Notes under the pieces: model-generated
What the model saw: only the letters and a program-made list of their open reading frames with translations
Database searches by the model: none
What the model was told of the DNA's origin: nothing
Translations under genes and position numbers: made by a program
Shown here: piece by piece, positions 8,115-9,532 of the stretch
Layout: every line of letters begins with the position of its first letter
Position numbering within the stretch: position 1 is the first letter of the stretch
From: a virus
Direction: 5' to 3' (one strand)
Length of the DNA: 64,000 nt
IMG/VR virus record: IMGVR_UViG_3300050821_010764
Coordinates: 1 to 64,000 of that record

Positions 8115-8135
8115 TAACTGGATATATAAACGATC

Positions 8136-8228
8136 ATGAAATATCTATAGATTCGTCCACGTGCGCCTCCTACAGTTAGACAAGTTCTAATTAATTTGTT
8201 TGTTAACCATATAGGAGATGTAAAATGA
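8136..8228 (+). CDS. Putative leader peptide MKYL[UAG]IRPRAPPTVRQVLINLFVNHIGDVK with in-frame amber and RAPP motif
   Basis: ATG 15 nt after the recurring GATATA motif; TAG at 8148-8150; the read-through frame ends in TGA overlapping the ATG of 8225. Confidence 0.65.
8167..8217 (+). promoter_or_regulatory. Putative SD-sequestering hairpin (translational attenuator)
   Basis: CTCCTA (8167-72) pairs with TAGGAG (8212-17); GTTA pairs with TAAC; GACAAGTT (8179-86) pairs with AATTTGTT (8193-8200). Confidence 0.6.
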
Positions 8229-8611
8229 AAAACGCACTGAAACATAATTATTCGAAGTTTATTTTGATTGGTAAGATCAAGGGCTTGGCTCTTGAGTCTA
8301 AAAAGGCTAGAACTCGTATTCTAAAAGCAAAAAAGGAAGAAGCTGTTTGGAATTTGTCTTCTCGTAAGCGTGTGGTCGGAATTGATATCCGTCATCACTT
8401 GTTAGCTTATGCTTTTCTACGCGGTGTGTCATATCGTGCCGTGGAACGCGCTTGTGGTAAAGACAACAAGCCTAATGCTGACTTAATTTTCAAGATTGTA
8501 GCAGCTCATGCCCCTCGATTGCTCTGCAATGAGGAAGCTCAAAAGGCTGGTAACTACATCTATAATCCTAGCTTGAGCGATGTTCAGGTGTGGCTCACGG
8601 AGGCACTCTAA
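8225..8611 (+). CDS. Basic hypothetical protein (RHHLLAYAFLRG..Y motif)
   Basis: 128-aa ORF with AGGAG SD. Confidence 0.8.
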   Translation: MKNALKHNYSKFILIGKIKGLALESKKARTRILKAKKEEAVWNLSSRKRVVGIDIRHHLLAYAFLRGVSYRAVERACGKDNKPNADLIFKIVAAHAPRLLCNEEAQKAGNYIYNPSLSDVQVWLTEAL

Positions 8612-8612
8612 C

Positions 8613-9194
8613 ATGTCCACCTAGCTTCAACTCACCCGAGACATGCAAGACTGTCAGCAATCCCAAGGTCAGTCTGTTTACCAGCATGGTCTCTCGGTTA
8701 AAGAGCATATTTTTCAGTTGATTGATTATCTGAAAACCGGGCACATCTCAGGCGACTGGCGATTGCCCGATTGGTTGACAGAGTATCGTCAGCAACTGCT
8801 TAGCGTCCTTCTCCCTCAGGATATCATCGAGGAGTATACAATTTACCACGATTGTGGTAAGCCTTATTGTAAGTCAATCGATGAGAATGGAAGAACTCAT
8901 TTTCCAAACCATGCCGACATGTCATACCAAACATGGTTGGAAGCTGGAGGTAGTCTGCAAGCCGCCAAGTTGATGAAGATGGATATGATTATTCATACCA
9001 TGAAAGCCTGCGACATCGATGAGTTTATTATTCATCCTGAAGCTTGCACTCTTCTTCTAGCAGGGTTGGCTGAGGTTCACGCCAACGCTAAGATGTTTGG
9101 AGGTCTTGATTCCACCTCCTTTAAAATCAAATGGAATCAAATTAACAAAAGAGGCAAAGCTATTTGCCAAAAACTGTTTAGGAGACAGTCATGA
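8613..9194 (+). CDS. HD-domain phosphohydrolase with in-frame TAG at codon 4
   Basis: GGAGG SD, then ATG TCC ACC TAG CTT... in frame with ORF 8643; H...YHDCGKP...HFPNHA resembles the HD domain of CCA-adding enzymes. Confidence 0.75.
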
Positions 9195-9532
9195 GTCTAT
9201 AGATTAAATCCGGTGATAAGTTGTATGTGATTACTCGTTCAGATTTGGAACCCGGTTATCAAGCCGTGCAGTCGATGCACGCTTTGAGACAGTTTACTGC
9301 TGAACATCCTGAGATAGATAGATTATGGTTTGATCAGTCAAACTATCTTGGTCTATTATCTGTTGCCAATGAGAAAGAGCTTTATAATCTAATGGAGCAG
9401 GCTCAGATGCAAGATATTAAGTTTTCGATTTTTCGAGAGCCTGATATTGGGGATCAGATTACAGCTATTGCCATTGCGCCTGGTGCCAAGAGTAAGAAAT
9501 TGTGCAGCAGGCTTCCTCTTGCTTTGAAGTGA
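9191..9532 (+). CDS. Peptidyl-tRNA hydrolase II (Pth2)-like protein with in-frame TAG at codon 4
   Basis: AGGAG SD, ATGA overlap, ATG AGT CTA TAG ATT... in frame with ORF 9221; YVITRSDL..G..AVQ..HA, EPD and TAIAIAPG match PTH2-family motifs. Confidence 0.78.

What the first reader, a model, noticed from the sequence alone, without database searches (positions are those of the whole stretch)
8121..9532. Amber (UAG)-gated operon: leader, basic protein, HD phosphohydrolase and Pth2-like hydrolase
Seen: three of four consecutive ORFs have an in-frame TAG within the first five codons after a well-supported start. (1) Leader: ATG AAA TAT CTA TAG ATT (8136-8153). (2) HD gene: GGAGG, 9 nt, ATG TCC ACC TAG CTT (8613-8627), in frame with ORF 8643. 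(3) Pth2-like gene: AGGAG, then ATG AGT CTA TAG ATT (9191-9205), in frame with ORF 9221 and overlapping the HD stop as ATGA. Two of the three share the context CTA-TAG-ATT. The downstream starts in the ORF track (8643, TTG 9221) lack a comparable SD. No other long gene in the window is broken by TAG, and two CUA tRNAs lie within 2 kb. Established: Pth2 recycles dropped-off peptidyl-tRNA; HD domains of CCA-adding enzymes remove 3'-end phosphates from tRNA; very short minigenes cause peptidyl-tRNA drop-off. Inference: this is a tRNA/ribosome rescue module expressed only when UAG termination fails, either because RF1 is limiting or inhibited or because the phage suppressor tRNAs are on. A stop codon would act as a multi-gene switch in an otherwise standard-code genome.
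Basis: partly seen in the sequence, partly recalled or inferred. Interest (0 to 1): 0.95.

Follow-up and report, generated by a model that had tools for sequence, protein, structure and literature searches.

The report
Stop-codon-locked phage operon with suppressor tRNAs
A large phage that otherwise uses the normal genetic code keeps a UAG stop codon a few codons into a small leader and two tRNA-related enzyme genes, right beside its own two UAG-reading tRNAs. These genes are therefore probably made only while those tRNAs override the stop, a natural switch I could not find described in print.

Summary

**The TAG locks are conserved.**
- HD-type gene (8613-9194): 74 of 80 distinct related loci keep an in-frame TAG near the start.
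- Pth2-like gene (9191-9532): 64 of 68 do.
- The TAG sits 0-6 codons after an ATG, down to about 35-45% protein identity.
- Codons just after the TAG evolve like coding sequence.
- Most Pth2 relatives have no start codon after the TAG.

**The leader is also conserved.** The leader (8136-8228) follows the plan M-x(n)-[Y/F]-L-TAG-x3-R-[A/G/S]-P-P. RAPP and RGPP are the strongest known ribosome-arrest motifs. Their CCUCCU is predicted to pair with the ribosome-binding site of gene 8225.

**The genome is otherwise standard code.** This holds for the 144.8-kb record and for a complete 447.8-kb relative.

**The locks go with the tRNA.** TAG locks co-occur with a neighbouring tRNA-CUA (34/39 locked loci against 4/25 unlocked). 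Unlocked relatives start M-A-T-I-K, so the residues after the TAG belong to the protein.

**Best reading.** This is a three-lock translational switch opened by the phage's amber suppressor tRNAs. What the HD and Pth2-like proteins do is inferred only.

**Prior notes.** This scan has noted the same module on at least 17 other genomes. I found no paper describing it.

The parts
8112..8130 (+). Conserved box TAATAAC-GGATATATAA just 5' of the leader ATG. It may be a promoter or the 5' end of a leaderless mRNA.
   Evidence: Conserved in 16 of 18 aligned loci. The same box directly precedes the HD ATG in loci that lack gene 8225. No sigma-70 match was found, so its role is inferred.
8136..8228 (+). 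Leader ORF: ATG 8136, TAG lock 8148-8150, Arg-Ala-Pro-Pro 8160-8171, and an end at TGA 8226-8228 that overlaps the ATG of gene 8225.
   Evidence: The plan M-x(n)-[Y/F]-L-TAG-x3-R-[A/G/S]-P-P is kept in about 25 distinct loci. Synonymous changes occur in the Arg codon (CGT/CGC/AGG) and in the Ala/Gly codon.
8167..8172 (+). Anti-SD CTCCTA inside the Pro-Pro codons.
   Evidence: It pairs with the SD 8212-8217 at probability about 1 in 17 of 18 loci. The leader uses CCT CCT in 17 of 18 loci, although CCT makes up only 32% of Pro codons in this phage.
8212..8217 (+). SD (TAGGAG) of gene 8225, predicted to be masked by the leader.
8225..8611 (+). Basic 128-aa protein with no TAG. The model is a helical hairpin and no family was found.
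   Evidence: 91 homologues were found, always in this module. No Pfam or PHROG hit. Model pLDDT is 85.6 with no fold match.
8613..9194 (+). HD-type phosphohydrolase gene with its SD at 8599-8603 and TAG lock at 8622-8624 (codon 4).
   Evidence: phrog_14850 match at E 6e-63 that starts at residue 6, upstream of the table-11 start. The TAG is kept in 74 of 80 loci. The model has a helix at residues 4-13, pLDDT 93.8. Best structural match is Z 15.5 to 3WFR.
9191..9532 (+). Pth2-like hydrolase gene with its SD at 9180-9184 and TAG lock at 9200-9202 (codon 4). Its ATG overlaps the HD stop (ATGA).
   Evidence: PF01981 at 29 bits against a cut-off of 23. The TAG is kept in 64 of 68 loci. In 41 of 64 the first ATG/GTG/TTG lies 9 or more residues past Lys10, and in 4 more there is none before the stop.
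10013..10086 (+). tRNA with anticodon CUA (loop CUCUAAA), discriminator G73, encoded CCA and an unusual T loop.
   Evidence: Rfam tRNA model, 41 bits; sequence read.
11405..11481 (+). tRNA with anticodon CUA (loop UUCUAAA), discriminator C73 and encoded CCA.
   Evidence: ARAGORN and Rfam at 61 bits. The same type recurs in relatives.

Best explanation
This is a translational switch with three UAG locks. The key is the phage's own amber suppressor tRNAs (10013-10086 and 11405-11481).

**Lock 1, the leader.**
- A ribosome starts at AUG 8136 and meets UAG at codon 5.
- If RF1 terminates, the ribosome leaves before it reaches the Arg-Ala-Pro-Pro codons. CUCCUA (8167-8172) then stays paired with the ribosome-binding site UAGGAG (8212-8217), and gene 8225 stays off.
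- If a tRNA-CUA decodes the UAG, the ribosome runs three codons further and arrests on RAPP. It then sits on the anti-SD, which frees the site, and gene 8225 is translated.

**Locks 2 and 3.** The HD-type gene and the Pth2-like gene each start at a good SD plus ATG and carry UAG as codon 4. Full-length protein therefore needs suppression again. Stop/start proximity couples the three genes (TAA 8609-8611 then ATG 8613; ATGA at 9191). Output should therefore rise steeply with suppressor activity.

**Shown:**
- conservation of the locks;
- a coding signature after them;
- the arrest-type motif and the predicted pairing;
- standard code elsewhere;
- co-occurrence of locks with tRNA-CUA.

**Inferred:**
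- that the tRNAs are charged and compete with RF1;
- that RAPP arrests in this short context;
- what the proteins do. From their folds they act on tRNA 3' ends or peptidyl-tRNA. They may deal with by-products of read-through or feed back on the suppressor.
For: 1. **Lock conservation.** 74 of 80 distinct HD loci and 64 of 68 Pth2 loci carry the TAG, placed 0-6 codons after an ATG.
2. **Coding signature after the TAG.** Entropy summed by codon position is 7.44/4.79/9.41 for HD and 3.73/2.30/5.80 for Pth2, that is position 3 > 1 > 2.
3. **No later start in Pth2.** In 41 of 64 loci the first ATG/GTG/TTG lies 9 or more residues past Lys10, inside the domain, and in 4 more there is none. The window's TTG 9221 is a Leu codon (CTT, CTC, TTA, CTG) elsewhere.
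4. **Unlocked relatives show the true N terminus.** They start ATG-GCN-ACC-ATC-AAG (M-A-T-I-K-x-G-D-K-L), so I-K-x-G-D-K-L is real N-terminal protein. The PHROG match and the model helix 4-13 of HD reach upstream of Met11.
5. **Context of the TAG.** The base after the TAG is never T in 133 cases. From general knowledge, T in that position gives strong termination in E. coli.
6. **Leader.** R-[A/G/S]-P-P follows the TAG at a fixed distance, with synonymous codon changes. CUCCU pairs with the SD at P about 1 in 17 of 18 loci. There is no other R[AGS]PP in 46,423 residues of this phage. RAPP and RGPP are the most robust arrest motifs and resist EF-P, and RSPP is partly permissive (PMC12992588).
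7. **Standard code elsewhere.** No TAG-split genes in G000, where stops are TAA 118, TGA 42, TAG 5. In the complete 447.8-kb relative, table 11 covers 93% of the sequence. There the SD-ATG-stop pattern occurs 4 times with TAG (HD, Pth2 and two doubtful) and 0 times with TAA or TGA.
8. **Lock and key.** Among 64 loci with at least 3 kb of flank: locked with tRNA-CUA 34, locked without 5, unlocked with 4, unlocked without 21 (Fisher p 1e-8). The four 'unlocked with' loci carry the TAG in the leader instead.
Against: - There is no expression, proteomic or biochemical evidence.
- The amino acid inserted at UAG is unknown. The 'Q' in database homologues comes from gene calling with TAG=Q.
- The 10013 tRNA has an odd T loop and may work poorly.
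- The anti-SD/SD pair is invariant, so there is no covariation support, and RNAalifold on the MAFFT alignment found nothing.
- HD has a conserved Met 6 codons after the TAG, so a shorter product by re-initiation cannot be excluded for that gene.
- The Fisher test ignores relatedness among loci.
- G000 is only about 34% of a genome by CheckV.
- The RGPP leader also exists without a TAG in phages that lack the tRNA. The arrest leader therefore has a role beyond sensing suppression.
Confidence: 0.78

Rival explanations
1. The TAGs are true stops of 3-4-codon mini-ORFs. The enzymes are made by termination-reinitiation at a downstream start (Met11 of HD; TTG or GTG, or a near-cognate codon, in Pth2). 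The suppressor tRNAs serve another purpose.
For: HD keeps an ATG 6 codons after the TAG in 65 of 69 loci. In Pth2 the codon after the TAG is often ATT or ATC, which are near-cognate starts. The phage also encodes an IF3 homologue at 12589-13287.
Against: The codons between the TAG and the next start are under coding constraint. Most Pth2 loci have no canonical start until well inside the domain, and 9 of 42 have GTT and others AAC after the TAG. Unlocked homologues begin 2-3 residues upstream of the same I-K-x-G-D-K-L. This reading does not explain why the stop is always TAG, or why it goes with tRNA-CUA.
Confidence: 0.1
2. UAG is read through, but not by the phage tRNAs. For example, the phage could inhibit or deplete RF1 so that a host near-cognate tRNA decodes UAG, and the locks would then report RF1 status.
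For: No release-factor or GlnRS-family gene lies in the 144.8-kb record, so any helper would be of an unknown kind. The TAG contexts are weak for termination.
Against: The locks track the presence of a neighbouring tRNA-CUA. Relatives without the tRNA have no locks. Nothing in the record points to an RF1 inhibitor.
Confidence: 0.07
3. The phage simply uses genetic code 15 (TAG = Gln) throughout, and these are ordinary recoded genes.
For: It carries suppressor tRNAs and uses TAG rarely as a stop. Public gene calls translate these TAGs as Q.
Against: No other gene in 144.8 kb, or in a complete 447.8-kb relative, has an internal TAG beyond chance. The TAG is always within the first 8 or so codons, not scattered. 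TAG still ends a few genes.
Confidence: 0.03

Closest known systems
Stop-codon-recoded phages with suppressor tRNAs (code 15 crAss-like, Lak and others; bioRxiv 10.1101/2021.08.26.457843; PMC9523058)
   Same: A phage-encoded tRNA-CUA, rare use of TAG as a stop, and the proposal that in-frame stops delay expression until the code-change genes are on.
   Different: There the TAGs are scattered through many late and lysis genes and stand for Gln. Here the genome is standard code. The TAG sits only in the first few codons of two or three specific genes beside the tRNAs, and the residue at that position is not constrained (Thr, Ser or Ala in unlocked relatives).
RAPP/RGPP arrest-peptide leaders (ApdA, ApdP, ApcA; SecM with RAGP; PMC7897499, PMC10951233, PMC10987492, PMC12992588)
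   Same: A small upstream ORF with R-A/G-P-P close to its end, next to a downstream gene whose ribosome-binding site can be masked.
   Different: Known examples monitor protein export and carry signal or membrane segments. This leader is about 12 codons long up to the motif and is found in a phage. It lies upstream of tRNA-related genes, and a UAG is placed three codons before the motif, so arrest needs read-through.
prfB (RF2) autoregulation and the infC AUU start
   Same: A decoding event early in an mRNA (an in-frame stop, or a poor start) reports the activity of the translation factor concerned and sets the gene's own output.
   Different: There is no frameshift site here. The event sensed is suppression against termination at UAG. 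It is not known whether the products feed back on that event.
Translational attenuation by leader peptides (ermCL, cat leaders)
   Same: A ribosome stalled in a short leader opens a hairpin that hides the next gene's SD.
   Different: The trigger is not an antibiotic but, on this reading, a suppressor tRNA.
Phage lambda bar minigenes and Pth (from general knowledge)
   Same: Very short ORFs of 2-4 codons ending in a stop, and a link to peptidyl-tRNA hydrolase.
   Different: The bar minigenes are toxic to Pth-defective hosts and are not fused in frame to a gene. Drop-off was not tested here.

Membership tests
Pfam PF01981 (PTH2, peptidyl-tRNA hydrolase 2) | Profile score above the curated cut-off | tested here: met
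   29 bits against a cut-off of 23, residues 10-102; 28.2 bits on the DNA. Most homologues carry PF01981 in the precomputed table.
Pfam PF01981 (PTH2, peptidyl-tRNA hydrolase 2) | Catalytic residues and hydrolysis of peptidyl-tRNA | not tested
HD-domain metal-dependent phosphohydrolases | H...HD...D metal-binding motif conserved | tested here: met
   H25, H79-D80, H100, D124, H128 and H156 are invariant in 26 sequences.
HD-domain metal-dependent phosphohydrolases | HD fold | tested here: met
   Model pLDDT is 93.8. VIA-align gives Z 15.5, rmsd 3.0, 160 residues to 3WFR 249-448, and Z about 10 to PhnZ, PPX/GppA, PgpH and YfbR.
HD-domain metal-dependent phosphohydrolases | Match to a Pfam HD model | tested here: not met
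   No Pfam family at E up to 0.1; only phrog_14850, of unknown function.
Class II tRNA nucleotidyltransferase (CCA-adding type), C-terminal part | Nucleotidyltransferase head domain | tested here: not met
   The protein has 193 residues and aligns only to residues 249-448 of 3WFR. The profile match is E 0.006 to 271-359. It resembles that part but is not such an enzyme.
RAPP-type regulatory arrest peptides | R-A/G-P-P near the end of a small ORF upstream of a same-strand gene | tested here: met
   RAPP at 8160-8171. RAPP, RGPP or RSPP is found in all leaders examined, and a stop follows directly in about half of them.
RAPP-type regulatory arrest peptides | Arrest demonstrated on the ribosome | not testable with these tools
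   This needs toeprinting or an in-vitro translation assay.
RAPP-type regulatory arrest peptides | Association with Sec/YidC or other localisation genes and an export signal in the leader | tested here: not met
   The downstream genes are the basic protein, HD and Pth2-like. The leader is too short to carry a signal.
Genetic code 15 phages | In-frame TAG across many genes; low coding density under table 11 | tested here: not met
   (93-96% covered by table-11 ORFs).
Genetic code 15 phages | Phage-encoded tRNA with anticodon CUA | tested here: met

The most novel reading that the evidence does not exclude
The module is a dedicated homeostat for stop-codon read-through. The UAG-then-RAPP leader and the two UAG-locked genes measure how well the phage suppressor tRNAs outcompete RF1. 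The HD and Pth2-like enzymes (with the basic protein) then act back on the suppressor tRNA or on the peptidyl-tRNA and stalled-ribosome by-products of read-through. This would let a standard-code phage run controlled UAG suppression in its host. It would also explain why many standard-code phages carry apparently useless suppressor tRNAs.
Probability: 0.3. Interest if true: 0.95.

Novelty: new variant of a known kind. Interest (0 to 1): 0.85.

Why it matters
- It would be a natural gene switch operated by a suppressor tRNA. It is built from known parts (a suppressor tRNA, an arrest peptide and a masked ribosome-binding site) in a combination I did not find in the literature.
- It gives a concrete, testable job to suppressor tRNAs in phages that have not changed their code.
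- It may be an intermediate on the road to full TAG recoding.
- It also matters for annotation. Table-11 gene callers truncate these genes, while callers that pick TAG=Q on short contigs print a Gln that has no evidence behind it.

Tried and rejected
- **Gln at the TAG position.** Database homologues seemed to show Gln there. Look-ups showed they translate only 'with_TAG=Q', so I dropped this as evidence.
- **RNAalifold.** On the MAFFT alignment of the leaders it gave no structure, because the SD columns are misaligned. I used per-sequence folding instead.
- **Basic protein fold.** Foldseek against the PDB found no match at E up to 0.001.
- **Promoter.** The sigma-70 scan found nothing at the conserved GATATATAA box.
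- **Phage records.** blastn against the deposited phage records found only a 101-base match.
- **Other stop codons.** None were clear in my 170 loci.
- **Other locked genes.** A further candidate in the complete relative (126717-128042, aldolase-like) looks like chance.
- **Hopping or frameshifting.** Both were considered and rejected. The codon before the TAG varies (CTA in only 15 of 69 HD loci and 31 of 64 Pth2 loci) and the frame is unchanged.
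Full report
**What is in the window.**

The region lies in a block of translation-related genes, all on the + strand:
- a Thg1-like gene (3776-4564);
- four tRNA-Thr genes and a tmRNA (5126-5911);
- an M23 peptidase;
- the operon in question;
- a tRNA-like element (9546-9667);
- tRNA-CUA (10013-10086);
- NadA;
- a second tRNA-CUA (11405-11481);
- an HNH endonuclease;
- an IF3 homologue (12589-13287);
- tRNA-Arg(CCU).

The window is the first 64 kb of a 144.8-kb IMG/VR record. CheckV rates that record at about 34% complete. It is therefore part of a huge phage. A related record of 447,763 bp is rated complete.

**Observation.**

I built 165 genes by a greedy ORF procedure. 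Among them, only 8643 and 9221 have this layout: a strong Shine-Dalgarno (SD) sequence and ATG, then two codons and a stop, then an ORF whose own start has no SD. In both cases the stop is TAG. TAG is the rarest terminator (TAA 118, TGA 42, TAG 5). Two of those five TAG-ended ORFs are spurious, lying over tRNA or tmRNA genes. For the other three, read-through would add only 1-6 codons.

**The locks are conserved.**

I fetched loci from three searches:
- 11 from IMG/VR with the HD protein;
- 80 from metagenomes with an HD alignment;
- 80 from IMG/VR with a Pth2 alignment.

HD gene, 80 distinct loci:
- 69 have a TAG 4-13 codons before the conserved Met, with an ATG 0-6 codons before the TAG.
- 3 are Pth2-HD fusions behind a single TAG.
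- 2 have the TAG but a more distant ATG or none found.
- 6 have a plain ATG start. These are among the most distant relatives. In four of them a TAG-locked Pth2 gene lies directly upstream.

Pth2-like gene, 68 distinct loci: 64 are locked in the same way.

The six (HD) and five (Pth2) codons after the TAG vary most at position 3 and least at position 2. Typical synonymous series are TTA/CTT/CTC, ATT/ATC, GAT/GAC and GGC/GGT. This is the signature of translated sequence.

For Pth2 a later start is not a way out. In 41 of 64 loci the first ATG, GTG or TTG lies at least nine residues past Lys10, inside the conserved domain. In four more there is none before the stop. The window's TTG 9221 is an ordinary Leu codon elsewhere.

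Pth2 homologues without a TAG begin M-A-T-I-K-x-G-D-K-L or similar. So the stretch after the TAG is the true N terminus, and the TAG position holds Thr, Ser or Ala there.

For HD, the PHROG profile match starts at residue 6. The AlphaFold model places residues 4-13 in a confident helix.

The base after the TAG is A, C or G and never T in 133 cases.

**A trap.**

Many database homologues read M-S-L-Q-I-K or M-x-x-Q-L-Q-L-I-R-D-M, which looks like Gln at the TAG position. Two look-ups showed these products translate only with TAG=Q. They are gene calls made under code 15 on short contigs. They are further examples of the TAG, not evidence for Gln.

**The leader.**

Every locus examined that has the basic-protein gene and enough upstream sequence carries a small ORF in front of it. 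It has four parts:
- Met and 2-7 residues, often ending Tyr-Leu or Phe;
- a TAG;
- three codons in nearly all cases;
- Arg-(Ala/Gly/Ser)-Pro-Pro.

After that there is either a stop or unconserved sequence.

The Arg codon is CGT, CGC or AGG, and the Ala/Gly codon uses all four third bases, so the motif is selected as peptide. The two Pro codons are CCT CCT in 17 of 18 loci, although CCT is only 32% of Pro codons in this phage. They are therefore also selected as RNA.

Folding each sequence on its own pairs CUCCU with the AGGAG of the next gene at probability about 1 in 17 of 18 loci.

RAPP and RGPP are reported as the most robust arrest motifs. They tolerate varied upstream sequence and resist EF-P. 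RSPP is partly permissive, and all of them are avoided in proteomes (PMC12992588; see also PMC10951233 and PMC7897499). This phage has no other R[AGS]PP in 46,423 predicted residues.

My comparative data agree with it.

**The code is otherwise standard.**

In G000 no frame joins two pieces of 60 or more codons across a TAG beyond what non-coding frames give.

In the complete 447.8-kb relative:
- Table-11 ORFs cover 93% of the sequence.
- Stops are TAA 515, TGA 185 and TAG 38.
- Frames joined across a TAG (8) are no more common than across a TGA (7).
- The pattern SD-ATG-(up to 8 codons)-stop-gene occurs four times with TAG: HD, Pth2 and two doubtful cases. It does not occur with TAA or TGA.

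**Lock and key.**

I took 64 distinct loci with at least 3 kb on both sides of the Pth2 gene.

| Pth2 gene | tRNA-CUA nearby | no tRNA-CUA found |
|---|---|---|
| TAG-locked (39) | 34 | 5 |
| Unlocked (25) | 4 | 21 |

Fisher's exact test gives p = 1e-8. The loci are related to one another, so this overstates the independence.

The four unlocked loci with a tRNA-CUA carry the TAG in their leader instead.

A higher-GC group of phages has an RGPP leader without a TAG (conserved S-E-C-K/N-A-V-E-P...R-G-P-P), an unlocked Pth2 and no tRNA-CUA. So the arrest leader is older or more general than the lock. The TAG is an added condition in phages that own the tRNA.

**The proteins.**

- **Pth2-like.** It passes the Pfam cut-off for PTH2.
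- **HD protein.** It has no Pfam hit, but it keeps the H...HD...D residues. Its model matches residues 249-448 of a class II tRNA nucleotidyltransferase-type enzyme (3WFO-3WFS) at Z 15.5. That stands well above other HD families at Z about 10, and a weak profile match points to the same chains.
- **Basic protein.** It is a helical hairpin with no match.

Their roles are inferred. They probably work on tRNA 3' ends or peptidyl-tRNA. The Pth2-HD fusions suggest the two act together.

**Mechanism and rivals.**

The best reading is a three-lock switch opened by the phage suppressor tRNAs (confidence about 0.78).

The rivals are:
- re-initiation after a true stop, which remains possible for HD only;
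- read-through caused by something other than the phage tRNAs;
- plain code 15.

The grounds given under Rival explanations make each of these unlikely.

What the tRNAs insert is unknown. The window's two tRNAs have G73 and C73. Many relatives have U1:A72 with G73, which from general knowledge resembles tRNA-Gln. I only confirmed the Thg1 domain and C73.

**Novelty.**

Four full-text searches found papers on recoded phages and on RAPP arrest peptides, but none describing this module. This scan has noted the same design on at least 17 other genomes, and follow-up agents reached similar verdicts.

This window adds four things:
- a third lock, on an HD-type gene;
- the structural link of that gene to tRNA nucleotidyltransferases;
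- Pth2-HD fusions behind one TAG;
- the unlocked, tRNA-free lineage as a natural control.

**Limits.**

All evidence is comparative or predicted. There are no data on expression, charging, arrest or enzyme activity. Two thirds of this phage's genome is not in hand.

Noticed in passing
window 9546-9667: A tRNA-like element directly after the Pth2-like gene. It has a 7-bp acceptor-type stem (GATCCGG/CCGGATC), about 45 extra bases, then an anticodon arm with GAU and a T arm. Rfam tRNA matches only 9600-9658 (29.3 bits, model positions 7-64).
   Followed up: partly
window 3776-4564 and 11405-11481: A Thg1-like gene (PF04446, E 8e-18) lies in the same block as a CUA tRNA with discriminator C73 and no encoded G-1.
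   Followed up: partly
window 12589-13287: A phage-encoded IF3 homologue (IF3_N E 2e-31, IF3_C E 1e-25) lies 1.1 kb downstream of the second suppressor tRNA. It may bear on start-codon choice or leaderless initiation.
   Followed up: no
window 10373-11395: A quinolinate synthase (NadA, E 1e-121) sits between the two suppressor tRNAs. The same neighbour is found in L003-L005 and L011.
   Followed up: no
L139-L170, L194 (IMG/VR loci, upstream of the basic-protein gene): Higher-GC relatives have a longer leader with conserved S-E-C-K/N-A-V-E-P...R-G-P-P. They have no TAG, an unlocked Pth2 gene and no tRNA-CUA within 5 kb. What that arrest leader senses is open.
   Followed up: partly
L055, L060, L062: Pth2-like and HD domains are fused in one frame behind a single TAG lock.
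   Followed up: partly
L014:5145-5160, L020:6189-6204, L034:5132-5147, L009:7528-7543: A recurrent ATG-GAR-TAG, then ATG within three codons, precedes other small genes near the suppressor tRNAs. These may be further locks in relatives.
   Followed up: no
G000 (whole 144.8-kb record); window 8121, 11489, 33378, 34314, 43051, 50049: GATATATA occurs 9 times on the + strand and once on the - strand, several times just upstream of an ATG without an SD. It is a candidate phage promoter or leaderless-start box.
   Followed up: partly
public protein collections (P0215, P0010 and many others): Short contigs carrying this module were gene-called with TAG=Q, so databases show a Gln at the lock. Longer contigs were called with table 11 and show truncated proteins (183 aa HD, about 101 aa Pth2).
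   Followed up: yes
L001:3940-4010: In a relative without the basic-protein gene, the leader start (M-K-D-L-TAG-I) is fused in frame to the HD gene. This gives two TAGs nine codons apart.
   Followed up: no
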